From a virus, in the IMG/VR virus record IMGVR_UViG_3300047469_000100, positions 1 through 38,077 of that record: 38,077 bases of DNA; one strand, 5' to 3'. The notes under the pieces were generated by a model. The model was not told the origin of the DNA. It saw only the letters and a list, made by a program, of their open reading frames with translations, and did no database searches. Both the position numbers and the translations under genes were made by a program. This document shows, one piece after another, positions 4,874-37,559 of the stretch. Each line of letters opens with the position of its first letter. Position 1 is the first letter of the stretch.

Positions 4874-6805
4874 TTACGCTCCCCATCCGTTGAACCGAAT
4901 GCCCTTATCCGTGTAGCCCATCAGTTTCGGGTGCGTTGGGATCGCTTCGTTGTCGTAGGTTCCGTAACCTTCGAAAGTATTAATACCGATCTTGTCGGTC
5001 GTCTCGTTCACGAAGGTCGAAAGGATCGAGCAGTGGGAGAATTGCAAGCCTGAAGGGAAGCTGTCGTTGCCGACTGCGTTGAAGTACGCACCAAAGCAAC
5101 CGGGCTGGCCGACACCAACTACGTTGTTGCCAACAAAGTGGCATCGATTGAACGAAACGTTATCGACGAACGCAAAATATCCAGCGTTCGAATTGATCGC
5201 GCTCGTCGTATCAAAGCGGCAGTCGTTGAACGAACTGAGCCACGTATCGTTAAAGACCGACGCAACGCCGTCCATAAACAAACCAGTGTGACCGTTTGCC
5301 GTGCTGGCAAAGAAACAGTTATTGATCTGGTTGTTGACGTTGTAGTTACCGGTCGGCGCCGCGCCGCCCTGCCACCACATACCGAACTTGGTGTACTGAT
5401 TGCCGCTGACGTTCCTGATCTGCGTGCCGCAGGACGCCGTCAGGAACAGACATCCCTCTGCGAGAAGGCCGGCAAAAAGCTTGAACCCTTCGAGATGGAC
5501 GTCGCTGATAGCACCGGTTACCCTGAGCATCGCTCCTGACATAGCAGCCGAAGCCTGGATATTTGTAGCCGGTGGCGTTGCGGCGCCGAAGCCGCCGCCC
5601 ATACCAATCAGCTTGACGCCGTTTTTCGTCGACTGGATCGAGCCCGCGTTGCCGGTGCCGATGGTTACCGGCGTTGCCCAGTTGTACTGTTTACCCATCA
5701 GCCGAACCGTGCCACCGCGCGCCGGCAGAGCATTAATAGCCTTCTGCGTGTAGACCGCGTCGTCAGCGCCGCCGCCAATTCCTCCGCCGCCGAACTGTTC
5801 GACATACCAGTCGGGTGGTGTATTCAATTTCCACCGGCGGCCGAGTGCGTCGACGATAATCGATCCACCGTTATCGGTACTTGTCGTATCAGACGCGTCA
5901 ACTTCGTACGGTCCACCGCCTCCGTCCAGCGAGTTGTAGTAACCCGTCACGAAGCAGGACTGGAAACGCGGATCTGCGTTCGCCTGAAGTTTGGCGATAG
6001 ACGTAAAGTTCCGGCGAAGACCGAAACCCCAAACGAGTTCTGCATCGCCAACGGATTGCTGGGGAGGCTGCCCTACCGAAAGCGTCGTGCCCGTGCGCAC
6101 ATAGACGCGCGAAATGCCTGTCGGGATCGGCGTAGGAAACGTGAGAGTCGTGCCGTTTAATGAGAAGTCGAGCTGCGGCGTTGCATCCCAATACGCCCAA
6201 CAGTTCGCGGCACTTATCGGCGCGCGCGAAAGCGTAAGGCTGCTCGTCACGTCTGGCGTGAAATCGGTGCCGGCCTTGAAGCCAGGATTTCCGTCCGAGC
6301 CTTTTTCAAAGCGCATGTCGCCAGCGCCGATCGACGCGGGTATCGGCACCATTTCCTGTATGCCGTTCGCATCAAAGCCGAGAAGCATCCCAGCGCGCTC
6401 GGTCGAGGGCGGCAATGTACCGTCAACGGCGTACTCGGTTACCGGATACTGGATCGCACGCTTGCCGGCGCCGCTAACATCCTGCAGCGCCATCCAGATT
6501 CTGTCGAAGTCAGCATTGACGGTGACGGCCAGTAAGTCTCCGTTGTCCTGATAATCGGTGTCGCGCTCAATCGAAATGTCGCGATAGATGATGACCTTAC
6601 CTGTCGGTGCCGTCGTGAATACCACGGAACCGCCGGACGACACGCCGATACCATTCACCGAGATCTGTGAGCCGATCGCCTGCAAAACTCCGTCGAGCAG
6701 AACCTTAATATCCGCACTTTCTAGAATGGCGAACGGAAAGGGAAAGAGCGTCGTTACGCCATTCCCCTGATACGAAATGATCGGATTCTGGACTGGGACT
6801 GTCAC
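4874..6805 (-). CDS. Tailspike/tail fibre: T7 gp17-type N-terminal adaptor plus a probable right-handed beta-helix (depolymerase-like) body
   Basis: The N-terminus (YQGNGVTTLFPFPFAILESADIKVLLDG...NADFDRIWMALQD) follows the T7 tail-fibre N-domain pattern. The C-terminal two thirds are Gly/Asn/Thr-rich, as in pectate-lyase-like spikes. GTG start with GAGAGG upstream. Confidence 0.65.
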   Translation of the reverse strand: MTVPVQNPIISYQGNGVTTLFPFPFAILESADIKVLLDGVLQAIGSQISVNGIGVSSGGSVVFTTAPTGKVIIYRDISIERDTDYQDNGDLLAVTVNADFDRIWMALQDVSGAGKRAIQYPVTEYAVDGTLPPSTERAGMLLGFDANGIQEMVPIPASIGAGDMRFEKGSDGNPGFKAGTDFTPDVTSSLTLSRAPISAANCWAYWDATPQLDFSLNGTTLTFPTPIPTGISRVYVRTGTTLSVGQPPQQSVGDAELVWGFGLRRNFTSIAKLQANADPRFQSCFVTGYYNSLDGGGGPYEVDASDTTSTDNGGSIIVDALGRRWKLNTPPDWYVEQFGGGGIGGGADDAVYTQKAINALPARGGTVRLMGKQYNWATPVTIGTGNAGSIQSTKNGVKLIGMGGGFGAATPPATNIQASAAMSGAMLRVTGAISDVHLEGFKLFAGLLAEGCLFLTASCGTQIRNVSGNQYTKFGMWWQGGAAPTGNYNVNNQINNCFFASTANGHTGLFMDGVASVFNDTWLSSFNDCRFDTTSAINSNAGYFAFVDNVSFNRCHFVGNNVVGVGQPGCFGAYFNAVGNDSFPSGLQFSHCSILSTFVNETTDKIGINTFEGYGTYDNEAIPTHPKLMGYTDKGIRFNGWGA

Positions 6806-6842: not shown

Positions 6843-8477
6843 CTACATTTCGAGCGTCACTTCATGAACGCCCGTGCTTGGACGCCAATCGTGCGATGAG
6901 TCGCCGGTCGAATTCCCGACCAACTTGCCTATACGAACAGGGGTTTCAAGGATTGCGGACGCGCCCGAGTCGATGAAGTCGTCCGGCTGCGTCTTGATGA
7001 GGGGGTTGAACTGCTTCATCTGGTCCCAGACAGGGCCGTCTAGCACGTCGACGTGGGCCCAGAGAATCCCCGATCGCAGCGGCCCCTCGAGGCCGCCGAG
7101 GATCTTCTCGTTCTTGTTGACGGTCGCCGTGCGCTCGAGCACGCCACACTGAAGGCGCCGCTGACTGATGGCTTTACGCAACAGTTGCGGCGCAAATGAC
7201 CCGACGCCGTTCGTTTCAACGTAAATCTGCGGGATCGAATAGCGCTCGATCAGGTCGCATATCTGCATAACCTGGCCGCCCTCTATCTTCGCGTTGTCCT
7301 TTGAGAACACCGCGAATTCGCCGAGCATGGCTTGTGCGACGTGCCAGTAATAATTCCCGGCCGCATCGTCGAGGATCAGCGACAGCGCCGAATCGTCGCC
7401 GCCGGCCTTACCCGTCGCACAGTCCCAATATGCTCGAGCACTCACGATGCGCGCCGCCCCGAGCATCATGCGCATTTCGCGGTTCGCGCGCTCGACGACC
7501 GGCTGCACGTCGTATGGCCGCATCTTCTCCGGATCGAGACGGGACTCGGTGACGGGCTTCGAGTGCAGCTGGTACTGGCTGTCCCACTCGTTGATCGTGC
7601 GCGTCTCGCGCCGGCGCTTTTCTAGCTCGGCGTGCACGAAGCGATCCGGCCACGCGCAGCCTGCATAGAAATCGATCAGCGCGCCCGGCGGGTTCGCGAA
7701 CCAGACGCGGTTGCCTTCTTCGACGAAGTAATCGACGCCCTCTGCCAGAAGGCGTGCGGGCTTGCCAATGCCGGAAAATACGTATTCAGGATGGAACGGC
7801 ACCTGATAGCGATCATCGGTCGCGTTATCAATGCGGTGTTCGTGTTCGAACATGCGTATCGTCAGACAGTCCGCGCCAAGCCGCTCCATTTCGTCGTACA
7901 GCGAATCGTGCGTGTGCGGCGTGCCGATGTACAGCTTTCGACCGCCCGGCACCAGAATGTGTGTCTGCTCGCCAAGGCGATAGCGCAGCTTCTCGCGGGC
8001 CTCGGGCGTCTGGATGTTGCGCGGCACCTCGACGTCATCGTTCTGGCATTCGTCCGCGCGCGCGCTGGTCACGTTCGACAGGATGCCCTTGGCGTACATG
8101 CTGGCGTTTCGATGATCGGTCGCGCCAATCACCCACCATTGCTCGACGGTGCCCTGATTGGGCGGCAGCAGGCCAGTCGTCAGCGGATGCCGGCGGATAA
8201 CGTTCTGCGTGTCACGGCTGGTCTTGTACGCGGTGCCATCCGCTTCGGACTGGTGGAGTATCCGATACGCCTGATCTTCGTAATAGCACCAGGCGTTATA
8301 GACCGCGAGGATCGTCGATTTACCGAAGCCGCGAAAGCATCGCAGCACCGCGAGGTCGCCGCGGCTCTCCAGCCAGTGACACGCAATGATGTGCACATCC
8401 GGGACGGTCCACCGCATGCGGTCCGCCCAGATTAAATAGAACGCGAGGAACGATATCTTACGCCCCACCGGCCGCAC
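6843..8477 (-). CDS. terL: Terminase large subunit (T7 gp19-like)
   Basis: Walker A context LRCFRGFGKSTI, then ADECQNDDVEVP and YIGTPHTHDSLY. This is collinear with T7 gp19 (FRGIGKS...DDVEIP...YLGTPQT). Confidence 0.85.
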   Translation of the reverse strand: MRPVGRKISFLAFYLIWADRMRWTVPDVHIIACHWLESRGDLAVLRCFRGFGKSTILAVYNAWCYYEDQAYRILHQSEADGTAYKTSRDTQNVIRRHPLTTGLLPPNQGTVEQWWVIGATDHRNASMYAKGILSNVTSARADECQNDDVEVPRNIQTPEAREKLRYRLGEQTHILVPGGRKLYIGTPHTHDSLYDEMERLGADCLTIRMFEHEHRIDNATDDRYQVPFHPEYVFSGIGKPARLLAEGVDYFVEEGNRVWFANPPGALIDFYAGCAWPDRFVHAELEKRRRETRTINEWDSQYQLHSKPVTESRLDPEKMRPYDVQPVVERANREMRMMLGAARIVSARAYWDCATGKAGGDDSALSLILDDAAGNYYWHVAQAMLGEFAVFSKDNAKIEGGQVMQICDLIERYSIPQIYVETNGVGSFAPQLLRKAISQRRLQCGVLERTATVNKNEKILGGLEGPLRSGILWAHVDVLDGPVWDQMKQFNPLIKTQPDDFIDSGASAILETPVRIGKLVGNSTGDSSHDWRPSTGVHEVTLEM

Positions 8478-19286: not shown

Positions 19287-19289
19287 GGC

Positions 19290-19880
19290 TTAACGGCCCG
19301 GCGCGCGGCTATAGCTGGACATGCGCCCGGCGATCAGCGGAAAGTCGCCGAGCGTTTCCTCGTCGTCATCCTGACCATTGACGGCTTTCGCCTGCTTGAA
19401 TGTATTGATGAACTGGGCCTGCATCGATTGCTGCATCGACGCGCTCTGCGTGATCGGATACGCGAGCGCGGCAGTCATTGCTGCGGTGACGACGTCGACC
19501 AGCGCCGGGTCCCACGACTGTTCGTTCGTGTTGCGGTAGATGTAGACGAACTGCAGCGCCGTCACATTCGCGAGGATGCGCTGGCCTTCGATGGTGTACT
19601 TCAGTGGGCAGCCAAGCTGGCCGATCTGAATCGAGCGAAGCCAGTCGTCCGGAAGCTGGAACTGGTAGAGATAGTCAAACGCCGGCGCATCAGTCAGCGG
19701 TGCGAGCACGACGCGCTTGGTCGCGCAGTTCCACGGATGCGAGCGCAGAATGGCGTCGCGGGTTTCTGGATAGAGGTTCGAGCAGGCCGTGGCGCGCTTC
19801 GATGGGTCCGTGAACGACGAAATCGGCGAATCGCCGAGTCGGATCAATGCATTCGAACAGATCGATACGCTGCTGGTCAT
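19290..19880 (-). CDS. Tail tubular protein A (T7 gp11-like, 196 aa)
   Basis: The length is identical to T7 gp11 (196 aa). The ICSNALIRLGDSPISSF...HPWNCATKR...FQLPDDWLR pattern is typical of the gp11 family. Confidence 0.7.
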   Translation of the reverse strand: MTSSVSICSNALIRLGDSPISSFTDPSKRATACSNLYPETRDAILRSHPWNCATKRVVLAPLTDAPAFDYLYQFQLPDDWLRSIQIGQLGCPLKYTIEGQRILANVTALQFVYIYRNTNEQSWDPALVDVVTAAMTAALAYPITQSASMQQSMQAQFINTFKQAKAVNGQDDDEETLGDFPLIAGRMSSYSRAPGR

Positions 19881-19890
19881 CGCCTCGCCT

Positions 19891-19925
19891 CAAACAAAAA
19901 TGCCGGGAGCGCGAACTCCCGGCAT
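19891..19925 (-). terminator. Rho-independent terminator after the capsid and decoration genes
   Basis: The minus-strand RNA is AUGCCGGGAG-UUCGCG-CUCCCGGCAU followed by UUUUGUUUG. The stem is a perfect 10 bp. Confidence 0.8.
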
Positions 19926-19957
19926 GACCTCAAACACCTAGCCGGGCAATTCGCCCG

Positions 19958-20419
19958 TTAGTCGATCACGTAGTCAACGGTCACCGAGATCGCCTGACCG
20001 GGACTCACCGGCGTCACTGCGCCGGCGATCGTGCCGTACACGTCCACTTCCTGCTGCGTCACGTACGACAGGCCGTTCTTCGTCAGATTGCCCGTGGCGA
20101 TCGTGTCGGTTTTCTGCGCCGAAGCGATCGACGTCGCAGCAGCCAAGCCGGCCGCATCAATGACGGTTTTGTCGGACGCCTTGCGAAGGCCGAGCGCGAG
20201 CGTCGAACTTGCCGTCCCTGCTGCGGTGTTCAGCCAGCAACCGGTAATGCGCGCGCCGGTCGGAATGCGACCGAAGTAGATCGTGTCGCCGATCTGGCCG
20301 GAGATCGAAGTGATCGTGCCGAACATGATCCGCGAACGGCCATTGCGCTCGTTCGGTTGAAGCTTGGACGGCGGGCTAGAGAGAACTTTCGCCATCTGTA
20401 CCGAGTTTGCTTCTGCCAT
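19958..20419 (-). CDS. Putative capsid decoration/cement protein (153 aa)
   Basis: It lies directly after the major capsid gene and inside the same terminator-bracketed unit. The sequence is beta-rich. The call is by position, analogous to BPP-1-like phages. Confidence 0.4.
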   Translation of the reverse strand: MAEANSVQMAKVLSSPPSKLQPNERNGRSRIMFGTITSISGQIGDTIYFGRIPTGARITGCWLNTAAGTASSTLALGLRKASDKTVIDAAGLAAATSIASAQKTDTIATGNLTKNGLSYVTQQEVDVYGTIAGAVTPVSPGQAISVTVDYVID

Positions 20420-20454
20420 GATGTGTGCTCCTGAATCTGGTGTTTAGACGGACA

Positions 20455-20480
20455 GGGGAAGCGGTATTACGCCGCTCCCC
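20455..20480 (-). other. Imperfect stem-loop between the capsid and decoration genes
   Basis: ggggaagcgg-tattac-gccgctcccc forms a 9-10 bp stem with one bulge. There is no U-tract. Confidence 0.4.
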
Positions 20481-20489
20481 ACATCACGA

Positions 20490-21380
20490 TCAGAACTGGT
20501 AGTCGATGGTGACGACCTTGTTTTCCTGGATTCGGCCAGCGCCGTACGACTCCTGGATATAGATCTGCGTCGCGTTCTTCTTGTCGCGGCGCGGGCCGAT
20601 GTCGACAACACGGTTCATACCCGTGCCGAACTGGATGCCGGTCTTCGTGTACGCAACCGTGGTCTTCACCGTGCTGACGGTCTTCAGGGCTTCGTACGGA
20701 ATCCAGTTGAAACCGAGCCACTTGCCGGACAGCTTGCCGTCCTGCAGCATCTGCACGGCCATGAAGTCAGCCGACGTCAGCGTGGTGTCGCTCAGGATGT
20801 CCTCGAGCATTTCGGCGTCGTACAGCATGTACAGTTCTTCGCCGTTCTGTTCGTCTGCCTCGGCCTTGCGGAACAGCTTCTTGGCCGTGATCAGCTTGGC
20901 CTTCGTCATGCCGGTGCCACCGTCGACGATCTTCTGCGAGGAAGGCAGCGCGACCGTGCCGTAAGGCGTCGCTTCAGCCGCACGCGTGATCGAAGCAGCC
21001 AGCGCCGCGTTGTAGATCACAGCGTCCTTCGCGCGGTTCATCGCGGCCACGCCGTTCTGCGTGTAGGTGCCGCCCGGGTTCGCCTTGAGCTTCGGCACGT
21101 CGAACGTGTCGACCGGCGTTGCCCAGTCCCAGTCGCCCATCATGATCACGCGCGTATCATTCGCGTTGTCCGACCATTCGGTGTCGCCGAGACGGCTGGT
21201 CACCTGGTTGGCCTGGGTCGCGGCGATGTTGTTCGCGGTGAATGAAGTGCCGGTCACGCCACCAACATCGGTGACGGTCGATTGAAGTCGCGACTCTTTC
21301 TGCTGCGCGACCATCATGTACGTGTCCGCAAACTGCTGGACAAATGCGGCGGTGATGCTGTCGTTGACTGCCGTGTTCAT
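20490..21380 (-). CDS. Major capsid protein (296 aa)
   Basis: It has the highest GC3 in the window and follows the scaffold gene. I chose the start at 21380 (MNTAVNDSITAAF) because GGGAG lies 8 nt upstream. The 26 extra codons of the tracked ORF have no SD. Confidence 0.75.
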   Translation of the reverse strand: MNTAVNDSITAAFVQQFADTYMMVAQQKESRLQSTVTDVGGVTGTSFTANNIAATQANQVTSRLGDTEWSDNANDTRVIMMGDWDWATPVDTFDVPKLKANPGGTYTQNGVAAMNRAKDAVIYNAALAASITRAAEATPYGTVALPSSQKIVDGGTGMTKAKLITAKKLFRKAEADEQNGEELYMLYDAEMLEDILSDTTLTSADFMAVQMLQDGKLSGKWLGFNWIPYEALKTVSTVKTTVAYTKTGIQFGTGMNRVVDIGPRRDKKNATQIYIQESYGAGRIQENKVVTIDYQF

Positions 21381-21540
21381 GGAATGGCTCCCAAAAGGTT
21401 CGATGTGTTCTTGTCGCCTTCCAGGGTGTCCGTTACCGGGCCTGTAGTACGGCATCACGTCGGCGAACGCGATGCATCGGGCTTGTCGGGTGTCCGCACG
21501 CCACTGCGGGCCGAATGAGCACGATGTTCTTGCAGGTGAG

Positions 21541-21561
21541 CGGTCGGAATCCCGACCAATT
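21541..21561 (-). promoter_or_regulatory. Copy A of a 21-nt dyad element (minus strand AATTGGTCGGGATTCCGACCG)
   Basis: It is an exact 21/21 match to 25486-25506. It contains a GGTCGG-gatt-CCGACC dyad and lies between a terminator and the capsid gene. Confidence 0.6.
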
Positions 21562-21571
21562 GAGCGTTAAC

Positions 21572-21595
21572 AAAAAAGCCCCGCCGAAGCGGGGC
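21572..21595 (-). terminator. Rho-independent terminator between the scaffold and capsid genes
   Basis: The minus-strand RNA is GCCCCGC-UUCG-GCGGGGC followed by UUUUUUG. Confidence 0.8.
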
Positions 21596-21621
21596 AAACG
21601 GGGGTGCAGCGAGGAGACTTG

Positions 21622-22548
21622 TTATGCGACCGGCGTGTTTCCGTACTTGCGTGCGTAGTACGCATCGACGCGAGCGCGGGTCGCTTTGTGATCTGCGTGC
21701 TTCGGATTGGTGTTCGCTTCCGAGACCAGCAGCTTTTGAATGTCGGCCTCACTCGAAAATCCGGTCGTCTGCCCGCCAGTCACTGGAACGTCTTCGCCAA
21801 ACTCAGGACCGATCGCGGCCATGATCTTGATGAACGTCGGATTGTTGGCGAGCCCGGCCTTTTCCAGATCGTCGAACGACATGCCGGCTGCTTTCGCGAC
21901 TGCGTCACCAGCGCGATACGCCAACTGGACATTCTTGTTGAACGTGCCTTCGTCGGTCCACGTCTTGCGTAGATCTGCTGTTGCGGCTTCGGTGTTGTGC
22001 GCGACGCCACCGGCGACGAGCTGCGGCACCAGTTCGAAATAGCGCGACATCACGCCGTCGAACTGCTTCTGCGACAGGCCCAAGCCGTGCATGTCCGTGC
22101 GGAACTGCTTGAACATGTCGTCGCTGCTCAGGTCGCCCATCGCTTCCTTCAGCGTGTCGGGCACCGCGACGGCGTATTCCTCGGCAGACTTCGGCGCGGC
22201 GCCGCCATCGCCGAAACGCTTCGACAGTTCGCCATAGCCGCCGGCCAGCTTCTGAGCCGATGCAGCGACGTCAACAGCGCCGTCCGCGCCGTTCACTCGA
22301 TACTTTTCGGGGATCCAGTCAAAATTCGCACCGCTTCCTGACGGGTCAGCGGCTGCAGCACCGGCTGCGAGGGCCGATCCTGCGCCAGCAGCAGCGCCTG
22401 CAGCCGGGTCCACGCCTCCCGCTCCCGTTGCCGAGCCTCCTGCGCCAGCCGCGCCAGTTGCGCCTCCGGCGACGACTCCGCCACCGCCAGCACCACCTTC
22501 ACCGCTTTGCGAATCCATGAGCGCATAGCGCCTCCAGAACCATTTCAT
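21622..22548 (-). CDS. Scaffolding protein (308 aa; T7 gp9 is 307 aa)
   Basis: It lies between portal and capsid. It has an Ala/Gly-rich N-terminal third and a helical remainder. GAGGA lies 6 nt upstream of the ATG. Confidence 0.6.
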   Translation of the reverse strand: MKWFWRRYALMDSQSGEGGAGGGGVVAGGATGAAGAGGSATGAGGVDPAAGAAAGAGSALAAGAAAADPSGSGANFDWIPEKYRVNGADGAVDVAASAQKLAGGYGELSKRFGDGGAAPKSAEEYAVAVPDTLKEAMGDLSSDDMFKQFRTDMHGLGLSQKQFDGVMSRYFELVPQLVAGGVAHNTEAATADLRKTWTDEGTFNKNVQLAYRAGDAVAKAAGMSFDDLEKAGLANNPTFIKIMAAIGPEFGEDVPVTGGQTTGFSSEADIQKLLVSEANTNPKHADHKATRARVDAYYARKYGNTPVA

Positions 22549-22574
22549 TTTTTATCCTCGCTACTGTTGTGAAA

Positions 22575-22781
22575 TCAGTACGACGTGCCAGCCGACCACG
22601 TGCCGGCAACGTTCTCGTACAGCTTGCGCGCCACAACGTCGATGGCCAGATCGCCAGGCGCGCCGATCTCGGCAACGGGCTGACCGATCACTGACGGAAT
22701 CGAGATCGTTTTCGCGAAACGCGTGTCGGGTGTCGGGTTGGCGGTCCAGCCGGATCCGCCCAGTGTCGAAGTGCCTGCCAT
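22575..22781 (-). CDS. Hypothetical 68-aa protein
   Basis: I chose the start at 22781 because AAGGAGAG-TGA-c-ATG couples it to the upstream stop. Confidence 0.5.
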   Translation of the reverse strand: MAGTSTLGGSGWTANPTPDTRFAKTISIPSVIGQPVAEIGAPGDLAIDVVARKLYENVAGTWSAGTSY

Positions 22782-22782
22782 G

Positions 22783-23037
22783 TCACTCTCCTTCTTCGGG
22801 TTGCTCAGCGCCATTGGCGCGGTTGATTTGCGTCAAAATGTGCTCGATCACCGCGCGGCGACCTGAACGAAAATCGGTTTCGCGCTGCGCTTCGAGGCCG
22901 CCACGAACGTACGTCGATCCGGCGAACCGGTTGACTAGATCCTCAAGCACCAGCTGGCCGGCCTTCGATTCGAACAGATGCGCATACTCGCTGGCTGTCG
23001 CAACGGGCGCTTGGGCGCCTGGGATGTTCGCCTTCAT
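22783..23037 (-). CDS. Hypothetical 84-aa protein between portal and scaffold (possibly Bbp19-like)
   Basis: It overlaps the portal stop by 4 nt. The family resemblance comes from memory only. Confidence 0.5.
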   Translation of the reverse strand: MKANIPGAQAPVATASEYAHLFESKAGQLVLEDLVNRFAGSTYVRGGLEAQRETDFRSGRRAVIEHILTQINRANGAEQPEEGE

Positions 23038-24656
23038 TGCTGAGCCACCATTCGGTTAGCCGCAGCAGATCCGGCTGACTTCAACACGTCGCCCGTCACA
23101 TCCATGCCGAGTTGCTGCTGCTGAGCCTGCGCGGCTGCAGCCTGCTTCTTCTGGCGGAACTGCGCAACCTGGTCGGACGGACGCATGATCGAGTCAGGCA
23201 CACCGAGACCCTTCGCGGTTTGGCGCGCGGCCTCGTCCGTGTCGACGTTATCCATCACGCTCGGATCTACCTGAGCGATCACGGACACGTCGCCCATGAA
23301 TCGCTCGATTGCCGTGACTTCCTCGAGCTTCTGCGCGCGCGCGAGCGGCGATTGATACTGAACGGAAAAGTTTCGACCGCCCAGCGAGTCGGGCGGCGGC
23401 TCAAATACGCCTGCGCGATACGCCAGACCGAAGCAGCGCGTGATCAGCGGTTGCAGGTATTCAGCCTGCAAGCGGCCATAGATCGGCCCGAGCAACTGGC
23501 GAATCAGGTCGACACGAACGTGCACTTCGGTCGCGGTCATCGCCGGGCCGTCCTGCGGCTGCAACTGGTCAGCCATCAGCGTGCGGCGGATGTTGCCCTG
23601 CAGCTTGTCCTTCTCGGTGAACGCGACATTGAAGTTCGCCGCGGGCTGCAGCGGCTTCATGCTTTCCACCGAGTTCGCAACGATGATCTTGCGCGGGCCC
23701 ACCTTGACCGTGCGCGGATTCAGCACGCCGTCGTCTTCGGCGATCCACATGCCAGAAACGGCCATGTCAAGGTTCGCGTACTCCAGCTTGACGATGTCAT
23801 TCAGCGTGCGGATGTCCGGAAGTGCGTCGAGCACCGGGCCGACGCCGTAGCAGCTATTCGGGATCTTCTTCCAACGAGCGACCACGACGGGCATTTCGTG
23901 ATAGCCAGACTCACGAACTGTCGCTTTCACGTCGCAGCACAGCGTTACCGAAGCGATCGGGAGATTCTTCGAGCGAACGGCACCGACGACGGAGACGCCG
24001 CGCGGATAGATGCAATGGCAGAATTCGAACTGCTGGTCAGGCATCGTCTCCGCAGCATCGGTGATCTTCTTCGGCAGCGTGTCGCCGCGCTTGCTGAATT
24101 CGGTGACGGCCTGCTCGGCGGTGAGCTTATACGGGCGAAACACAGTGTCGATACGACCGCCGGGACGCGACGACGCCACGTAGACGCCAGCCATCGGCCA
24201 GTGTTCGAAATATAGTCCACCGTTGTCACGGTCCTCGTCGATGTACAGAGCAAACCAGCCAGCGCCCATGCAATCGTCGATGCAATCCGAGGCTTCCGAA
24301 TCGAAATTGGCATTGTGGATGTTCTCCCACAGCAGCTCGCTTGCGTCGTCGAGCCACCGCGTTCCCTCGTCGTCCTCGCCATTCACGCGCATCTTGAACC
24401 ACAACGAGTTCGCCGGCGTCATGCCGGACATGATCGAAGCGTTCAACACGCGCTTCGCATCGCTCGCGGTCGAGTCGAAGATCAGCGAGACGGCGCGCGC
24501 GATCTCGTTCGCGTCCATCACCGGGCCTTGCAGGCCAGACGCGCGAATCGGATCGGTGAGCATGAAGCAGTCGCGCCACACCAGTTCGTGCACGGTGCGC
24601 GCGGACTTCAGGGCTTCGAGCCGCTTGTAGAGGGAGTCGCCGAGGCTGTAGGGCAT
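23034..24656 (-). CDS. Portal (head-to-tail connector, T7 gp8-like; 540 aa against 536 aa)
   Basis: Size and position match. The N-terminal LEALKSARTVHELVWRDCFMLTDP and FDSTASDAKRVLNASIMSGMTPANSLWF segments fit the T7 connector family pattern. Confidence 0.8.
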   Translation of the reverse strand: MPYSLGDSLYKRLEALKSARTVHELVWRDCFMLTDPIRASGLQGPVMDANEIARAVSLIFDSTASDAKRVLNASIMSGMTPANSLWFKMRVNGEDDEGTRWLDDASELLWENIHNANFDSEASDCIDDCMGAGWFALYIDEDRDNGGLYFEHWPMAGVYVASSRPGGRIDTVFRPYKLTAEQAVTEFSKRGDTLPKKITDAAETMPDQQFEFCHCIYPRGVSVVGAVRSKNLPIASVTLCCDVKATVRESGYHEMPVVVARWKKIPNSCYGVGPVLDALPDIRTLNDIVKLEYANLDMAVSGMWIAEDDGVLNPRTVKVGPRKIIVANSVESMKPLQPAANFNVAFTEKDKLQGNIRRTLMADQLQPQDGPAMTATEVHVRVDLIRQLLGPIYGRLQAEYLQPLITRCFGLAYRAGVFEPPPDSLGGRNFSVQYQSPLARAQKLEEVTAIERFMGDVSVIAQVDPSVMDNVDTDEAARQTAKGLGVPDSIMRPSDQVAQFRQKKQAAAAQAQQQQLGMDVTGDVLKSAGSAAANRMVAQQ

Positions 24657-24659
24657 GAG

Positions 24660-24935
24660 TTATTGGCCGAGTGTCGACTTACCCTGCGCCATCACAGACG
24701 AACTGGTCGCAGCACCAGCGCCGCCCAGACCCGCGCCAGTCGACAGCAGACTGGCAGAGGCGCGCTTCTTCTTGTCGGCGGCAGCCTGCGCATTGGCAGA
24801 CTGAGCAGCCTGAGCGTCAGCCGCGTCAGCCGCGCTTGTCGCCGTGGTTGACGTGGTGGTCGGCGCCGCTGCCGGCGTGTCTTTCGTCCACAGGCCGCCC
24901 GGGTCGAGGAACTTCGAAAAGCTGAAATTGCCCAT
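24660..24935 (-). CDS. Hypothetical 91-aa protein
   Basis: I chose the internal start MGNFSFSKF at 24935 because GAGG lies 6 nt upstream. The upstream part of the 184-aa ORF overlaps the next gene. Confidence 0.5.
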   Translation of the reverse strand: MGNFSFSKFLDPGGLWTKDTPAAAPTTTSTTATSAADAADAQAAQSANAQAAADKKKRASASLLSTGAGLGGAGAATSSSVMAQGKSTLGQ

Positions 24936-24942
24936 GGTCGCC

Positions 24943-25440
24943 TCAGCGGAAGTTCTGCGGGAGTTGCTTCTGGATCGTCGGCACCAGCCAGCCATCTGCA
25001 CACAACTTCGGCGCGGCCAGCGTGGCGGGATCGATTTCGCTCGAATGCGGGAGGGTTGGCTTGGCGGCCGCCGCACCATCAGGGGCAGGCGCTGCCTCGC
25101 GAGCGGCGCGGCGGGCCGCAACAGCAGCCGCAGCCTGCTCGCGCGCTTTATCCTGATCCGGCATGTCGCCAGCATTGCGGAACATCGTTCCGAATTCTTT
25201 GCGCTTGCCGGCAATCAGATCGTCGCGCTTCGTCGGCTCAGCCGCGTTCCATTCCTCAGCGGACAGGCCGCTGGTCTCAAACGCGCCCTCGACAATGTCG
25301 TTGATCGGCACATCACGCCCGGAAATCTGCATGACCGCGTCGTCGCTGCCAATGCCAGCCAGAACTACCGACGCCGTCGCGCCAACAGCCGGTGCCGTGC
25401 TCGGCATGCCAGGCTGCTGCGTCTTGTACTCTCTTGCCAT
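24943..25440 (-). CDS. Hypothetical 165-aa protein, first gene of the late block
   Basis: I chose the start at 25440 (MAREYKTQQ) because GGAGGTG lies 6 nt upstream. Confidence 0.55.
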   Translation of the reverse strand: MAREYKTQQPGMPSTAPAVGATASVVLAGIGSDDAVMQISGRDVPINDIVEGAFETSGLSAEEWNAAEPTKRDDLIAGKRKEFGTMFRNAGDMPDQDKAREQAAAAVAARRAAREAAPAPDGAAAAKPTLPHSSEIDPATLAAPKLCADGWLVPTIQKQLPQNFR

Positions 25441-25485
25441 CGCTCGCACCTCCATCCATGGTGCGGCGAGTATTTAGCCCCACGC

Positions 25486-25506
25486 CGGTCGGAATCCCGA
25501 CCAATT
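25486..25506 (-). promoter_or_regulatory. Copy B of the 21-nt dyad element
   Basis: It is identical to 21541-21561. It begins at the stop codon of the HTH gene and lies 46 nt upstream of the first late gene. Confidence 0.6.
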
Positions 25507-25775
25507 CACATCCGCCGGTATTCCGCCGCGCTCGGCGGCGGCGTCCATGTCGGCGCGCTCTCAGCGTCTTTGCCAGTCACCTGCACCCAGAATCGCAGAA
25601 GCGTCTCGCCACTCGAGTGGCGCGGCTCGGCCCCAAGGTTTCGATAACCCAAAAGCGTGGCCTTCGGGATCTGCGTGTATTCCGCTATCTCGCGAAACGA
25701 CCAGCCCGCCCCTCGCACCTCGTGAAGAATGCGCGACCAGTCGACCATCGGTACAGGGGCGAGTTGTTTCGTCAT
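25506..25775 (-). CDS. Small HTH DNA-binding protein (89 aa), candidate late regulator
   Basis: GWSFREIAEYTQIPKATLLGYRN is an HTH-like segment. The position is last before the late block. Confidence 0.5.
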   Translation of the reverse strand: MTKQLAPVPMVDWSRILHEVRGAGWSFREIAEYTQIPKATLLGYRNLGAEPRHSSGETLLRFWVQVTGKDAESAPTWTPPPSAAEYRRM

Positions 25776-25779
25776 AAGC

Positions 25780-26019
25780 TCAGGCGGCGTCCTTCACGCG
25801 AATGGATGACCAGTTGTTGAAAGATGCGACTTCCACTCCGGCGGCGACTACGGTCAGATGGTTGCCATCGATGTAGTACTTCTCGCCTTGCACCTCCACT
25901 TCGTCGCCAACGTACGGCTGAACGACGTACGTCACCTTTTCGCGCGCGGGCGAGGCGGACGGGCGAAGGCCACGGTTCTGCACAGAGTCGGCGCTGCACC
26001 CGGGGTTGTATGAGGCCAT
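25780..26019 (-). CDS. Hypothetical 79-aa protein
   Basis: An ORF whose ATG overlaps the upstream gene's stop by 1 nt. Confidence 0.5.
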   Translation of the reverse strand: MASYNPGCSADSVQNRGLRPSASPAREKVTYVVQPYVGDEVEVQGEKYYIDGNHLTVVAAGVEVASFNNWSSIRVKDAA

Positions 26020-26909
26020 CAGAGCGTCTCCTCGATTGCGTGGATCAGGCGAAGCAGGTCGGCCATGATGATGGCCTCGCCCGATTCGATCTTGCGGCGC
26101 AGCGCGGCCAGATGCGGCTTTGCCGGGTGATCGTCGGTCGGTTCGTCAATCGAATCGCTGGTAGTGTCCGCAAGCTGGGCACCACCAGCCAGGACGTTTC
26201 CCGCGTCAGCAGCGCCATCGGATTGTTGCTGGGTCGATTCGCCGGCGTTGGATGCGGCCTCGTTCGTCGAGCCATCGGTGCTCGATGCACTGCCCGAGGA
26301 GGCAGAGATCGAGCCAGAGACGTTTCCCACGTCAGCGTCCGATTCTTGTTGCGTCAAGCCAGATGCAGAGGTTGAATCGCCGTCCGTACTCGACCCTGCA
26401 CCCGAGGCGTTCCCACCCTGCGAGATCGTCGAAGCTTGGGAGGTCACCGCCGCGGAAGGTCCCGGCTGGGAGATGGATTCGGACTTCTCCGCCCCGGGTG
26501 ACAATGCAGGGCCATCCCCGACGTTTCCCGCGTCACCTGCGAGCTGATCGGACGATGCAGCCGCCGCGGTGCCGTCGACGGGCAATGCACTCGGCACAGA
26601 TGACAAGGTGCCGCTTGCGGATGCGGACGCCGCAAGCGTGGCAACGTTTGGGGATTCAACGGACGCGGTTTCCGCCGCGAGGTCCGAGTTCGAACCGCCG
26701 GTCGAAGGCGACTCGCTGACAGCGCTCGCAGGCGACGAGGTTTCCGAATCCGTCGAGGCGGAAGCAATCGGAGTGGATGCCGACTCCCCCGGCGCGGCCG
26801 TGCCAGCCTCCGTGCTGCTCGGCTCGACGCCAGCAGTTTCGTCTTCGACCGCGCGCATGGGCAGCGCCGCGATCAGCATCAGTTTCAAAAGTTGCGAGGC
26901 TTTCATCAT
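26019..26909 (-). CDS. Highly acidic Ser/Thr/Ala/Gly-rich low-complexity protein (296 aa) with a hydrophobic N-terminus
   Basis: An MMKASQLLKLMLIAALPM leader is followed by about 230 aa of S/T/A/D/E/G and a helical C-terminal 40 aa. AGGAG SD. There are three internal 16-nt repeats. Confidence 0.55.
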   Translation of the reverse strand: MMKASQLLKLMLIAALPMRAVEDETAGVEPSSTEAGTAAPGESASTPIASASTDSETSSPASAVSESPSTGGSNSDLAAETASVESPNVATLAASASASGTLSSVPSALPVDGTAAAASSDQLAGDAGNVGDGPALSPGAEKSESISQPGPSAAVTSQASTISQGGNASGAGSSTDGDSTSASGLTQQESDADVGNVSGSISASSGSASSTDGSTNEAASNAGESTQQQSDGAADAGNVLAGGAQLADTTSDSIDEPTDDHPAKPHLAALRRKIESGEAIIMADLLRLIHAIEETL

Positions 26910-26937
26910 TGCTCCTGGTGGTTTGGTTGCTACGGGG

Positions 26938-27276
26938 TTAAGCGGTCACGCTGGCTTTCCAGCGCTCCCAACATTGCTGCGCCTGTTCCTCGGTCATCAT
27001 CGCGATACCGACTTTCTCGAAATGCCATCCGCGAACGCGTTCATCGGCGGCATTTGCGTTGATTGCGCCGAGCGTGGCGCGGATCACGCGCTCGGCGAAT
27101 TGCTCGATGTTCAGCGGCTGACCGGTCAAACGCTCGCGGCGCGCCATGCTGGCCGATACCACCGAGAGTTCGGCAATGAGCTGCTCGCTCAAATGCACGC
27201 GCGCGTGCGCATGCGCGCGCGAGACCGGCGCGCAGTCTTGCGGAATGTATCCTTCACTTTGCTTACAATTCGTCAT
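26938..27276 (-). CDS. Hypothetical 112-aa protein
   Basis: ORF only, in the early nin-like region. Confidence 0.5.
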   Translation of the reverse strand: MTNCKQSEGYIPQDCAPVSRAHAHARVHLSEQLIAELSVVSASMARRERLTGQPLNIEQFAERVIRATLGAINANAADERVRGWHFEKVGIAMMTEEQAQQCWERWKASVTA

Positions 27277-27535
27277 TTCCCAGATCCCATTCGTGATCGC
27301 CGCTTGCGATGAACGCGGCCAGCGATCTGCGGTTGAACTTCACCAACGCCTCAACCCGATACGTCCCGTCTTCGTTGAAGTAGCGCGGCGTCGCGACACC
27401 TCGGTACTGCGGCGGCAACTCAACATCAACCAGCACAGCAATCTCGCACTCAGGGTCGTCATCAGCGCGGCGCACCCGGCGCACAACGCATTCGAACGAC
27501 TGCGCGCCCTCGTACGACTGGAACGGCAATTCCAT
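27263..27535 (-). CDS. Hypothetical 90-aa protein
   Basis: I chose the internal start MELPFQSYEG at 27535. The upstream part of the 193-aa ORF lies inside the preceding gene. Confidence 0.5.
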   Translation of the reverse strand: MELPFQSYEGAQSFECVVRRVRRADDDPECEIAVLVDVELPPQYRGVATPRYFNEDGTYRVEALVKFNRRSLAAFIASGDHEWDLGNDEL

Positions 27536-27549
27536 GCGAACCAGAAGCC

Positions 27550-27987
27550 TCAAGCGGCCTCCAGCAACGGCAAGCCCATCTTTGCGGCGCGCACCGGCAA
27601 CCACCGCTCGTAGCCGCGATCCCATACGTCGAACTTCACTTGCTTGGGCGTGCCGCACTCGTTCTGGTCGATCCAGCGATGGCACGGGCCACACCCGGGT
27701 ACCGTGAAAATGTTGTCCGCCTTGATGCCTCTGCCCTTGCCGTGTCGCAGTTGGTTCGAATGACAGTCGACGACGCACGGGCTCGCCCAGCCGACGCTCA
27801 CGCACACACCCGGTACGCGGAGATAGCATTCCTCGCCGCGGCACGCCGCGATGTACTTAGAGCCCTCCGCAACTGTGGGCTTGCGGCTGGTGCGCTTCAT
27901 CGGTTTAGCGGCGCGCGAGATACCGGTACCGCGCGAAAGGGTCGCGTAGACCTTGCCGGGCTTGCGGACGAATCCGGAGCGCTTCAC
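27550..27987 (-). CDS. DUF1364/YbcO-like Cys/His (zinc) putative nuclease
   Basis: CRGEECYLRVPGVC...CHSNQLRHGKGRGIKADN...CGPCHRWID parallels E. coli YbcO (RGRECQVRIPGVC...AH...G.G.KP.D...C..CH..ID). I chose the GTG at 27987 because it forms a GTGA overlap with the upstream stop. An ATG at 27900 is the alternative. Confidence 0.55.
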   Translation of the reverse strand: MKRSGFVRKPGKVYATLSRGTGISRAAKPMKRTSRKPTVAEGSKYIAACRGEECYLRVPGVCVSVGWASPCVVDCHSNQLRHGKGRGIKADNIFTVPGCGPCHRWIDQNECGTPKQVKFDVWDRGYERWLPVRAAKMGLPLLEAA

Positions 27988-28409
27988 GCCGACACCCGGC
28001 CGCTTCGAACCATCGCCACCATTGCGCCGACCACGACAGCATCGGCGCGCGGCCACCACTCAGCGGCGGTGCGGTGCTGCTCGTCCAGTTCGCGCTCGAT
28101 CGCGCGCGGATCAACAACCGACTTCATGAGCTTTCGGTTCGCGGTCCAGCGGCGCGAACGCTCGGTTTCCGGCGTCTTGAACTCAGGCATGGGCGCGTTC
28201 TCGCCCGGCCCCATCCGATAGAAAACTTCATGATGGCGGCCGCGATAGGATTCGATGTGAGCTTGACCGGCCGTGATCAGTTGATTCAGGATCACGCGCA
28301 CGAACTTGTTGCCGCACCCGATCTCATCTTCGATTTCCTTCGAAGAACGCGCCACACCGTCATTCATCAACGCCATGAACTTAGGTCGATAGATTGAAGG
28401 CCTTCCCAT
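27984..28409 (-). CDS. Hypothetical protein with a probable winged-helix N-terminus (141 aa)
   Basis: The start at 28409 lies 1 nt after the upstream stop (TGAcATG). Confidence 0.5.
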   Translation of the reverse strand: MGRPSIYRPKFMALMNDGVARSSKEIEDEIGCGNKFVRVILNQLITAGQAHIESYRGRHHEVFYRMGPGENAPMPEFKTPETERSRRWTANRKLMKSVVDPRAIERELDEQHRTAAEWWPRADAVVVGAMVAMVRSGRVSA

Positions 28410-32931: not shown

Positions 32932-33183
32932 ATGGCCTGCAACTGTGTACGTGAAAACCAGACCCGACTGGCCGAGCACTACTCCAAGCAACTCGGAGTG
33001 CCCGCAAAGGCTGAGGCGAAGAATGTCGCGATTGTGTTCGGCACGGACGTGAACGAGCGTGCCTACATGCCTTACGCCATCAAGGCCGACAAACCGGGCT
33101 GGCGCAGCGCGAAGGGCAAAGAGATCAGCATGTTCTTCAACTACTGCCCGTTCTGCGGCCAGAAGACTGATCCGGTGGCCTAA
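32932..33183 (+). CDS. Small Cys-rich (zinc-ribbon-like) protein (83 aa)
   Basis: MACNCVREN...NYCPFCGQKT has CxC and CxxC pairs. Confidence 0.55.
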   Translation: MACNCVRENQTRLAEHYSKQLGVPAKAEAKNVAIVFGTDVNERAYMPYAIKADKPGWRSAKGKEISMFFNYCPFCGQKTDPVA

Positions 33184-37353: not shown

Positions 37354-37559
37354 CCGAAATTCAGATCGCCAGGCGTGCGGTCCAACTCTACGCTGAACAG
37401 CACCCGCGGCCTCCGCACGTCACGATCATCCAGGCTGCGGAAATGCTGGGGCTCAGCCGGCACACGGTATCGAAGATGGTCAAGACCGGCCAGATCAAGC
37501 TGAACAAGTGCGGCCTGATCCCGATCGAGCAGGTCGACGCGGCCCTGCAGCCCGTCTAA
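37350..37559 (+). CDS. xis: Excisionase / AlpA-type HTH protein (69 aa)
   Basis: VTIIQAAEMLGLSRHTVSKMVKTGQI is an HTH_17-like segment. The gene is convergent with int and its stop overlaps the int stop. Confidence 0.65.
   Translation: MTEIQIARRAVQLYAEQHPRPPHVTIIQAAEMLGLSRHTVSKMVKTGQIKLNKCGLIPIEQVDAALQPV

What the first reader, a model, noticed from the sequence alone, without database searches (positions are those of the whole stretch)
25486..25506. A 21-nt dyad-symmetric element occurs exactly twice, at the head of the late operon and in front of the capsid gene
The minus-strand sequence AATTGGTCGGGATTCCGACCG (dyad GGTCGG-gatt-CCGACC) is identical at 25486-25506 and 21541-21561. I found no other full copy by eye. 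Copy B starts at the stop codon of an 89-aa HTH gene and lies 46 nt before the first late gene. Copy A lies 10 nt downstream of a strong terminator and about 160 nt before the capsid ATG. Neither copy has a recognisable sigma70 -35/-10 with correct spacing. This phage has a T7-like virion module but no phage RNA polymerase, so the element could be a late-activator binding site (for example for the adjacent HTH protein). It could also be an RNA hairpin acting as a processing (RNase III-type) or antitermination (put-like) signal.
Basis: seen in the sequence. Interest (0 to 1): 0.65.

Follow-up and report, generated by a model that had tools for sequence, protein, structure and literature searches.

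The report
Conserved palindromic late promoters of a prophage
The repeated 21-mer is the core of this temperate phage's late-gene promoters: a 16-bp palindrome sits where the usual -35 box would be, most likely as the binding site for the small uncharacterised DNA-binding protein encoded just upstream, and the same arrangement recurs in a large family of related phages.

Summary
The 21-mer is exact at 25486-25506 and 21541-21561. There is also a third, slightly degenerate copy at 6905-6925, inside the end of the terminase gene and ahead of the tail-fibre gene.

The functional core is a 16-bp near-palindrome, GGTCGGGA|TTCCGACC. It is invariant or nearly so in more than 120 phage or prophage contigs of about 36 kb from beta- and gamma-proteobacteria. 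It always lies on the late-gene strand, at the heads of 3 to 5 late transcription units.

Exactly 12 nt downstream there is a hexamer nAnnnT, with A in 94% and T in 93% of 85 non-redundant sites. This is the signature of a sigma-70 -10 element. There is no -35 box.

The 89-aa helix-turn-helix (HTH) gene next to copy B is the only non-structural gene that travels with the element. Its identity between lineages falls to about 31%. It has an Xre-like fold and belongs to no described family.

Best reading: these are activator-dependent late promoters, similar in logic to the phage Mu C protein and its late promoters, with the palindrome spanning about -40 to -25. The RNA-hairpin readings are disfavoured. 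This is a new variant of a known kind.

The parts
25487..25502 (-). Late promoter P_B: 16-bp palindromic core GGTCGGGATTCCGACC. It overlaps the stop codon of the HTH gene.
   Evidence: Exact match. Position weight matrix score 39.5 bits. The same position, directly after the HTH gene, is occupied in every HTH-anchored relative that includes enough downstream sequence.
25469..25474 (-). Predicted -10 hexamer AATACT of P_B, 12 nt after the core. The predicted start is near 25462. A GGAGG ribosome-binding site and the ATG at 25440 follow.
   Evidence: Read from the sequence. A at hexamer position 2 in 94% and T at position 6 in 93% of 85 non-redundant sites chosen without reference to the hexamer. 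The start site is inferred, not mapped.
21542..21557 (-). Late promoter P_A (capsid promoter): palindromic core directly after a terminator.
   Evidence: Exact match. Score 46.5 bits. The terminator-then-palindrome arrangement before the capsid gene recurs in most relatives.
21524..21529 (-). Predicted -10 hexamer GAACAT of P_A. The predicted start is near 21517, giving a leader of about 137 nt to the capsid ATG at 21380.
6906..6921 (-). Late promoter P_C: degenerate core GGTCGGGAATTCGACC inside the last ~25 codons of the large-terminase ORF, upstream of the tail-fibre and lysis genes.
   Evidence: Score 29.6 bits. The same site inside terL is exact in enterobacterial and Massilia relatives (L238 36134).
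6888..6893 (-). Predicted -10 hexamer CACGAT of P_C. The predicted start is near 6881, and the tail-fibre GTG is at 6805.
25506..25775 (-). Gene for an 89-aa Xre-like HTH protein, the proposed late activator. It is the last gene before the late region.
   Evidence: Matches phrog_16553. No Pfam, NCBIfam or PDB sequence match. AlphaFold2 model with mean pLDDT 86 and an Xre/controller-protein-like fold. An orthologue is present in all 46 element-bearing loci that reach this position and sits just upstream of site B in all lineages examined.
21571..21595 (-). Intrinsic terminator (GCCCCGC-TTCG-GCGGGGC followed by TTTTTTG) that ends the portal/scaffold unit just upstream of P_A.
   Evidence: An equivalent terminator is present in most relatives.
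19900..19925 (-). Second intrinsic terminator, after the capsid gene and a 153-aa ORF. Together with P_A it brackets a capsid expression cassette.
21494..21509 (-). Conserved stem-loop in the capsid mRNA leader (CCGCA ... TGCGG), downstream of the predicted start.
   Evidence: Consensus fold of 12 diverse leaders: 5 pairs, 2 of them with compensatory changes.
24943..25440 (-). First late gene, followed by portal (24656-23034) and scaffold (22548-21622): the unit served by P_B.
20490..21380 (-). Major capsid gene, served by P_A.
   Evidence: PF19821 and phrog_3437.
4874..6805 (-). Tail-fibre gene, served by P_C. Lysis genes follow, including a GH108 endolysin at 4526-3978.

Best explanation
The element is the upstream half of a phage-specific late promoter. 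Each promoter has two parts: a 16-bp near-palindrome (GGTCGGGA|TTCCGACC, usually preceded by TT) and, exactly 12 bp downstream, a weak sigma-70 -10 hexamer (nAnnnT). There is no -35 box.

If the hexamer occupies -12 to -7, the palindrome spans about -40 to -25, with its dyad centre near -32.5. It therefore sits where the -35 element would be.

The proposed mechanism is as follows. A dimer of the small Xre-like HTH protein encoded immediately upstream (25775-25506) is made as the last product of the early/replication operon. It binds the palindrome and lets the host sigma-70 RNA polymerase start at these otherwise dead promoters.

In this phage three such promoters switch on three units:
- P_B: first late gene, portal and scaffold.
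- P_A: capsid. It is boosted because it is bracketed by two terminators.
- P_C: tail fibre plus lysis genes. The promoter is embedded in the end of the terminase gene.

Shown here: the sites, their fixed geometry with the -10-like hexamer, their strand and position, and their co-occurrence with the HTH gene. Inferred: that the HTH protein is the binder, that it activates rather than represses, and the start sites.
For: 1. Recurrence. The 18-mer TTGGTCGGGATTCCGACC is exact in more than 120 IMG/VR contigs of about 35-38 kb and in prophages of Raoultella, Pluralibacter, Serratia, Trabulsiella, Enterobacter and Massilia. It falls at a few syntenic positions whose flanks are otherwise unrelated.

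2. Promoter geometry. In 85 non-redundant contexts chosen only by the 18-mer, the only other informative positions are A (94%, 1.6 bits) and T (93%, 1.5 bits). These are hexamer positions 2 and 6, 12 nt downstream, the two bases sigma-70 reads in a -10 element. No -35 and no TGn motif appears. The sigma-70 consensus scan finds no full promoter in 19000-28000.

3. Position and strand.
- The window has exactly three sites, all on the late strand.
- Yersinia phage YeP5 has four, before the first late gene, the capsid gene, an ORF at 33112 (a TerS-like position) and the lysis cassette.
- A complete E. coli prophage at dusA has exactly five: before the first late gene, capsid, TerS/TerL, tail fibre (inside terL) and holin. 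It has none elsewhere and none on the other strand.

4. A terminator lies directly upstream of the capsid site in most lineages, so a promoter is needed there.

5. Regulator.
- An orthologue of the HTH gene is found in all 46 element-bearing loci that reach that far.
- In HTH-anchored loci with 31-100% protein identity, a site lies from 35 nt before to about 600 nt after the HTH stop codon. A second lies 3.3-5.5 kb downstream.
- The neighbouring early genes are not conserved: 3-7 of 79 loci.
- The protein model is a confident Xre-like HTH. Its closest solved folds include dimeric palindrome-binding regulators such as restriction-modification controller proteins.

6. Relatives with a homologous virion module but no palindrome (Piluca, TPWB-05) have only a distant, longer HTH homologue that is not next to the late genes, and a different upstream motif.
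Against: - No transcript ends, binding data or reporter data exist for any member, so the start sites are predictions.
- The DNA site is essentially invariant while the HTH protein diverges to about 31% identity. No protein-site covariation could therefore be shown, and the link rests on co-occurrence and adjacency. Structural genes co-occur as well.
- A dimer centred near -32.5 would occupy the place of sigma region 4. In the structurally similar controller-protein systems, binding over the -35 represses (PMC2504287).
- The PHROG family is labelled 'transcriptional repressor'.
- The fold matches are generic and weak (Foldseek E 0.04-0.3).
- The -10 hexamers are poor (GAACAT, CACGAT).
Confidence: 0.72

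Rival explanations
1. The palindrome is an operator for a repressor, either the adjacent HTH protein or a host factor. The repressor would sit on the -35 region and keep late genes off, while transcription is driven by something else.
For: The palindrome covers the -35 position (geometry). phrog_16553 is labelled repressor. Xre-like proteins are mostly repressors. Controller proteins repress when bound over the -35.
Against: Apart from the palindrome and a weak -10 hexamer, nothing is conserved that could make these promoters active: no -35, no extended -10. A pure operator would not be the single best-conserved element at 3-5 promoters while the promoter itself drifts. The gene's position, last before the late region and after the replication genes, is that of a late activator.
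Confidence: 0.12
2. The element acts in RNA, as a hairpin on the late transcript that serves as an RNase III or other processing site, a stabiliser, or a put-like antitermination signal.
For: The sense-strand RNA can form a 7-9 bp hairpin of -11 to -12.5 kcal/mol. Copy C keeps the sixth pair as G.U. Copy A follows a terminator.
Against: - Any palindrome folds, and z-scores are only -1.9 to -3.0.
- The commonest variants (AGTCAGGATTCCGACC, GGTCAGG...) give A.C mismatches at pairs 1-16 and 5-12 in 24 and 29 of 126 sites. Only one compensated case occurs at each pair. Other variants pair only on the opposite strand.
- The 'loop' bases are as conserved as the stem.
- The inner 12 bp keep their sequence, not just their pairing, across hosts of two proteobacterial classes.
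- RNase III substrates need about two helical turns, and put RNAs are two-stem elements of about 65 nt (established knowledge).
- There is no Rfam match.
- The fixed 12-nt spacing to an nAnnnT hexamer has no RNA explanation.
Confidence: 0.05
3. The element is the promoter for a phage-encoded sigma factor or an unconventional RNA polymerase rather than for an activator working with sigma-70.
For: Near-identical ~20-bp sequences at the heads of late units, some right after terminators, resemble T7-type phage promoters. The virion module is T7-like.
Against: No RNA polymerase or sigma-like ORF is present. All ORFs over 500 aa are virion or packaging proteins, and the unannotated ORFs are at most 424 aa. 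The only conserved non-structural gene is an 89-aa HTH, too small for a sigma factor. The conserved A and T spaced as in a sigma-70 -10 element point to the host holoenzyme.
Confidence: 0.05
4. The element is a non-transcriptional DNA site, such as a packaging or recombination signal, or a conserved 'linker' that promotes module exchange.
For: The sites lie at module boundaries (before the capsid gene, between terL and the tail fibre, before the lysis genes). They are identical between otherwise diverged phages, which would favour recombination.
Against: This does not explain the single orientation, the fixed spacing to the nAnnnT hexamer, the placement 25-160 nt before start codons, or the presence of 3-5 copies per genome. 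Module shuffling could be a by-product.
Confidence: 0.03

Closest known systems
Phage Mu late promoters (Plys, PI, PP, Pmom) and the activator C, with Mor for the middle promoter
   Same: Several late promoters per genome have a recognisable -10 hexamer but no -35. Each carries a 16-bp imperfect dyad bound by a dimer of a small phage HTH protein made in the preceding transcription phase, and host sigma-70 polymerase is used (PMC2582627).
   Different: Mu's dyad is centred at -43.5, whereas this one is centred near -32.5, about one helical turn closer and on top of the -35 position. The protein here is an Xre-like five-helix fold with no Mor/C (Pfam) match. The site sequence is unrelated.
Restriction-modification controller (C) proteins and C-boxes (C.Esp1396I, C.AhdI, C.PvuII)
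   Same: These are among the closest solved folds to the HTH model. They are small dimeric Xre-type proteins that bind pseudo-palindromic operators at the -35 region and activate by contacting sigma-70 (PMC2504287).
   Different: C proteins autoregulate their own operon from two adjacent operators, activating upstream of the -35 and repressing over it. Here a single palindrome lies downstream of the regulator gene and at distant promoters. There is no restriction-modification context and no significant sequence similarity.
Lambda cII at PRE, PI and PaQ; the PhoB pho box; the T4 MotA box (from general knowledge, not tested here)
   Same: In each case an activator site replaces or straddles a non-functional -35 region about 10-12 bp upstream of the -10. 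Lambda cII sites also occur inside coding sequence, as P_C does here.
   Different: cII and PhoB read direct repeats, not a palindrome. MotA needs the co-factor AsiA. None of these proteins is related in sequence.
Phage P1 late promoters with Lpa, and P2/P4 Ogr/Delta late promoters (from general knowledge)
   Same: These are temperate-phage late promoters defined by a -10 hexamer plus a conserved dyad element recognised through a small phage activator.
   Different: The P1 dyad is 9 bp and lies near -22. The P2 dyad (TGT-N12-ACA) lies near -55 and its activators are zinc-finger proteins.

Membership tests
Activator-dependent sigma-70 late promoter (Mu C type) | -10 hexamer present and -35 hexamer absent | tested here: met
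   A at 94% and T at 93% at hexamer positions 2 and 6, 12 nt after the core, in 85 non-redundant sites. No information at -35 other than the palindrome. No full sigma-70 promoter found by scan.
Activator-dependent sigma-70 late promoter (Mu C type) | Dyad-symmetric activator site next to or over the -35 region, repeated at all late promoters | tested here: met
   The 16-bp near-palindrome is found at 3 window sites, 4 YeP5 sites and 5 E. coli prophage sites, all on the late strand. The inferred centre is -32.5, not -43.5.
Activator-dependent sigma-70 late promoter (Mu C type) | Activator belongs to the Mor/C protein family | tested here: not met
   No Pfam or NCBIfam hit, even at E = 10 for Pfam and E = 1 for NCBIfam. 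The fold is Xre-like.
Activator-dependent sigma-70 late promoter (Mu C type) | Transcription depends on the phage activator, and the start site lies 7 nt after the -10 | not testable with these tools
   Needs 5' end mapping, reporters or in vitro transcription.
Restriction-modification controller protein / C-box switch | Small Xre-type HTH dimer | tested here: inconclusive
   Foldseek best hits include C.Esp1396I, C.EcoT38IS, C.BclI and C.AhdI, with probability 0.97-0.99 but E 0.08-0.2 and TM 0.5-0.7. No sequence match. Oligomeric state was not modelled.
Restriction-modification controller protein / C-box switch | Paired operators upstream of its own gene, linked to restriction-modification genes | tested here: not met
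   A single palindrome lies at or after the stop codon of the HTH gene and at distant late promoters. There are no adjacent restriction-modification genes.
RNase III processing site | Double-stranded RNA stem of roughly two helical turns | tested here: not met
   The predicted hairpin is only 7-9 bp. Pairing is not maintained in variants.
put-like (HK022) RNA antiterminator or Q/qut system | Structured RNA of about 65 nt with two stem-loops downstream of the promoter, or a Q protein with a site between -35 and -10 of a single late promoter | tested here: not met
   The element is 16-21 nt, lies upstream of the predicted start and occurs 3-5 times per genome. There is no Rfam hit. No Q-like family was found in the ORFs scanned.
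T7-type single-subunit RNA polymerase promoter | Phage-encoded RNA polymerase present | tested here: not met
   No candidate ORF. All large ORFs are virion or packaging proteins.

The most novel reading that the evidence does not exclude
The HTH dimer binds exactly where sigma-70 region 4 normally sits (about -40 to -25). Activation would then not be classical class I or class II recruitment. The protein would either act as a surrogate for the -35/sigma-4 contact, a one-protein form of the 'sigma appropriation' seen with T4 MotA/AsiA, or bind the opposite DNA face to sigma-4 as lambda cII does. On this reading it defines a large, undescribed family of late activators (1176 clusters at 50% identity with E <= 0.001). 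Its 14-bp recognition sequence would have stayed fixed across beta- and gamma-proteobacterial phages while the protein diverged to about 31% identity.
Probability: 0.3. Interest if true: 0.7.

Novelty: new variant of a known kind. Interest (0 to 1): 0.55.

Why it matters
- It explains how a widespread group of temperate phages with T7-like virions but no phage RNA polymerase times its late genes.
- It proposes a function for an unnamed protein family with more than a thousand sequence clusters.
- It provides a simple sequence rule (palindrome, 12 nt, nAnnnT) that marks late transcription units, including promoters hidden inside coding sequence, in hundreds of prophages. These include prophages of E. 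coli, Salmonella, Citrobacter, Yersinia and Burkholderiales.
- The unusual placement of the site over the -35 position makes it a tractable case for studying how an activator can replace -35 recognition.
- The pair (a small activator plus a 34-bp promoter) could serve as a compact orthogonal expression switch.

Tried and rejected
- Megablast of the late region against GenBank phages found nothing. Protein-level searches were needed to find annotated relatives: YeP4-6, Piluca, TPWB-05 and the pelagiphage HTVC010P group.
- A literature search for the core sequence returned no paper. Searches on YeP4-6, on BPP-1/BcepC6B/Xfas53 and on late activators found no description of this motif or protein.
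- No significant match for the HTH protein or its profile in Pfam, NCBIfam or PDB sequence searches. A recalled resemblance to the HTH of lambda cII was not borne out by any search.
- Rfam gave no hit in the window.
- I looked for protein-site covariation across 79 HTH-anchored loci. The inner site is invariant, so nothing could be concluded. Only the outer base pair and the spacing (11 instead of 12 nt) change, in one clade.
- A sigma-54 reading (GG-N10-GC) and a reading of TTGGTC as a -35 box were considered by eye and rejected. The -12 element does not match, and the spacer would be 24 nt.
- About 17 chance hits of an 18-mer are expected in the 596-Gb genome collection. I treated the hits in Paenibacillus and other unrelated taxa, which lack the phage-type flanks, as unrelated.

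Full report
**The observation**

The minus-strand 21-mer AATTGGTCGGGATTCCGACCG is exact at 25486-25506 (copy B) and 21541-21561 (copy A). No match is expected by chance in dinucleotide-preserving shuffles.

Allowing three mismatches reveals a third copy, AGTTGGTCGGGAATTCGACCG, at 6905-6925 on the same strand. A position weight matrix built only from sites in other phages scores these three places at 46.5, 39.5 and 29.6 bits. The next best window hit scores 6.2, and the maximum in shuffled sequence is 8.3. The window therefore has three copies, not two.

**Context in the window**

The window is a temperate phage or prophage. It carries:
- part of an integrase at the right edge and a cI-like HTH;
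- an O-like replication protein, a RusA-like resolvase and an HNH endonuclease.

Its minus-strand late region is syntenic with T7/SP6-type virion modules:
- first late gene 25440-24943;
- portal 24656-23034 (PF12236);
- scaffold 22548-21622;
- capsid 21380-20490 (PF19821);
- tail tube A and B, then internal virion proteins;
- large terminase 8477-6843;
- tail fibre 6805-4874;
- GH108 endolysin 4526-3978.

No ORF could be an RNA polymerase or a sigma factor.

The three copies sit as follows:
- Copy B overlaps the stop codon of the 89-aa HTH ORF 25775-25506 and ends 45-46 nt before the first late ATG.
- Copy A follows a strong intrinsic terminator (21595-21578) and precedes the capsid gene.
- Copy C lies in the last ~25 codons of the terminase gene, about 100 nt before the tail-fibre start.

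**The element in other genomes**

The 18-mer TTGGTCGGGATTCCGACC is exact in more than 120 IMG/VR contigs, mostly 35-38 kb. It is also exact in prophages of Raoultella, Pluralibacter, Serratia, Trabulsiella, Enterobacter and Massilia. The remaining genome hits lack the phage-type flanks, and their number is close to the ~17 chance hits expected for an 18-mer in 596 Gb.

Printing the flanks shows that the matches fall into a few syntenic classes with unrelated flanking sequence:
- after a terminator and before the capsid gene;
- about 45-50 nt before the first late ATG;
- inside the 3' end of terL;
- in enterobacterial members, also before the small-terminase gene and before the holin.

In a complete E. 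coli prophage integrated at dusA there are exactly five sites, at these five places. All are on the late strand, and there are none elsewhere in 44 kb. Yersinia phage YeP5 has four, with a slightly different right half (GGGAAACCGAAC).

**A promoter signature**

I took every site that matched the 18-mer with at most three mismatches and reduced the set to 85 contexts below 85% identity. Two features outside the 16-bp core and its short flanks stand out:
- A (94%, 1.6 bits) and T (93%, 1.5 bits) at positions 2 and 6 of a hexamer that begins exactly 12 nt after the core. These are the two bases of the -10 element that sigma-70 recognises (established knowledge).
- A T-rich run upstream, which in the capsid-class sites is the terminator tail.

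No -35 box and no TGn motif are present. The simple sigma-70 scan finds no complete promoter anywhere in 19000-28000.

In the window the hexamers are:
- AATACT (25474-25469);
- GAACAT (21529-21524);
- CACGAT (6893-6888).

One clade uses TGTCGGGATTCCGACA with an 11-nt spacing and TAnnnT hexamers.

If the hexamer is at -12 to -7, the palindrome spans about -40 to -25. Predicted starts fall near 25462, 21517 and 6881. This gives a 22-nt leader with a GGAGG ribosome-binding site for the first late gene, and a ~137-nt leader for the capsid gene.

**DNA site or RNA hairpin**

The core is a 16-bp near-palindrome, GGTCGGGA|TTCCGACC. The perfect form GGTCGGGATCCCGACC also occurs. The RNA could fold into a 7-9 bp hairpin of -11 to -12.5 kcal/mol, but any palindrome does this.

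Several points argue against an RNA role:
- In a relaxed set of 126 non-redundant candidate sites (a few are false or reverse-read matches), the frequent variants put A opposite C on the sense strand at pairs 1-16 (24 sites) and 5-12 (29 sites). Only one compensated case occurs at each pair.
- The promoter-proximal half, CCGACC, is almost invariant, while the distal half is looser.
- The central bases are as conserved as the arms.
- Across all lineages the inner GTCGGGAWWCCGAC keeps its sequence, not merely its pairing.
- There is no Rfam match.

This pattern fits base-specific recognition of duplex DNA by a dimer. It does not fit a hairpin, an RNase III site (the stem is too short) or a put-like element (too small, and upstream of the predicted start).

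**The regulator**

The 89-aa ORF next to copy B is 33% identical (E = 3e-14) to a 91-aa ORF directly upstream of the equivalent site in an enterobacterial relative whose replication module is entirely different.

- tblastn finds the protein in all 46 element-bearing loci that extend far enough.
- Conversely, 79 loci fetched by the protein alone (31-78% identity to the window protein) carry a site from 35 nt before to about 600 nt after its stop codon. A second site lies 3.3-5.5 kb downstream wherever the sequence reaches that far.
- The other genes between replication and the late region are found in only 3-7 of those 79 loci.

The protein matches no Pfam or NCBIfam family and no PDB sequence, and every database homologue is 'hypothetical'. 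An exhaustive profile search finds 1176 representative clusters at E <= 0.001. The AlphaFold2 model is confident (mean pLDDT 86) and consists of five helices. Its nearest solved folds are Xre/lambda-repressor-type domains: ImmR, SinR, anti-CRISPR-associated (Aca) regulators and several restriction-modification controller proteins. The matches have high probability but weak E-values, and the viral structure library gives only generic HTH hits.

Relatives with a homologous virion module but no palindrome (Piluca, TPWB-05) have only a distant, longer homologue placed elsewhere, and a different motif before their late genes.

**Mechanism proposed**

The HTH protein is the last product of the early operon. 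It binds as a dimer to the palindrome and enables host sigma-70 polymerase to use promoters that have only a weak -10.

In this phage:
- P_B drives the first late gene, portal and scaffold, up to the terminator at 21595-21578.
- P_A, bracketed by that terminator and a second one at 19925-19900, boosts capsid expression. Read-through presumably serves the tail, internal-protein and terminase genes.
- P_C, embedded in terL, drives the tail fibre and the lysis cassette.

The binding partner, the direction of regulation and the start sites are inferences.

The closest described logic is phage Mu. Its four late promoters have a -10 but no -35, and each carries a 16-bp imperfect dyad bound by the small HTH activator C (PMC2582627). 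Here the dyad is about one helical turn closer to the -10, and the protein family is different. Because the site covers the -35 position, a repressor role cannot be excluded: controller proteins repress from that position (PMC2504287). However, no other conserved element is present that could make these promoters active.

**Novelty**

I found no paper containing the sequence or describing the protein. The kind of system, activator-dependent late promoters, is well known. The protein family, the site and its placement over the -35 region are new, so I rate this as a new variant of a known kind.

**Verdict**

- Confidence in the late-promoter reading is about 0.72. Confidence that the adjacent HTH protein is the activator is somewhat lower.

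Noticed in passing
window 21494-21509 (-), with equivalents in L001, L012, L095, L158-L173: A short stem-loop is conserved in the capsid mRNA leader, about 10-25 nt after the predicted start (CCGCA/TGCGG here, CCGGCG/CGCCGG in enterobacterial relatives). It is followed by GGAYA. Two of its 5 pairs show compensatory changes. If any RNA-level signal exists upstream of the capsid gene, this is the better candidate.
   Followed up: partly
L238 34202-34265 and 39944-40021; many IMG/VR loci (classes 'CATCAT' and 'TACCCT'): In enterobacterial relatives, the promoters before the small-terminase gene and before the holin have a hairpin squeezed between the -10 hexamer and the ATG. In the small-terminase class it is followed by a T-tract (for example AGCCCTGTAttcacTACAGGGCTTTTTT-ATG). 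It looks like a terminator for the upstream unit whose 5' arm would be excluded from transcripts that start at the new promoter.
   Followed up: no
L157 (Alcaligenes phage Piluca) 7, 19459, 24200; L237 (Acinetobacter phage TPWB-05) 25754, 20860, 8450, 3475: These phages share the virion module but lack the palindrome. Instead, a non-palindromic motif CACCCAACAAA followed by a hairpin, a T-tract and the ATG recurs before late genes. This suggests a different late-control signal in that branch.
   Followed up: partly
window 6888-6921 (-), within terL 6843-8477: Promoter P_C is dual-coding: the palindrome and the -10 hexamer are read as the C-terminal tail of the large terminase (GKLVGNSTG...HD here, GKLVGIPT...EH in enterobacterial relatives). 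The window's two core mismatches are non-synonymous (I to N, P to S). This suggests that the DNA signal, not the peptide, is what is conserved.
   Followed up: partly
L033 7205-7235 (-): Three direct GGTGGTC repeats lie in the gap between the primase gene and the HTH gene of an enterobacterial relative. They resemble iterons and may mark a replication origin.
   Followed up: no
window 958-2067 (+); L238 38800-39903: An O-antigen acetyltransferase-like gene (a probable lysogenic-conversion cargo gene) lies on the opposite strand at the left end of the window. In the E. coli prophage an acyltransferase gene sits between the tail-fibre gene and the lysis promoter.
   Followed up: no
window 37556-38026 (-): A tyrosine-integrase catalytic-domain ORF lies about 50 bases from the right end of the window. 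At 156 aa it is short for an integrase (the E. coli and Yersinia relatives' are about 360-400 aa), so it may be truncated. The prophage boundaries were not determined.
   Followed up: no
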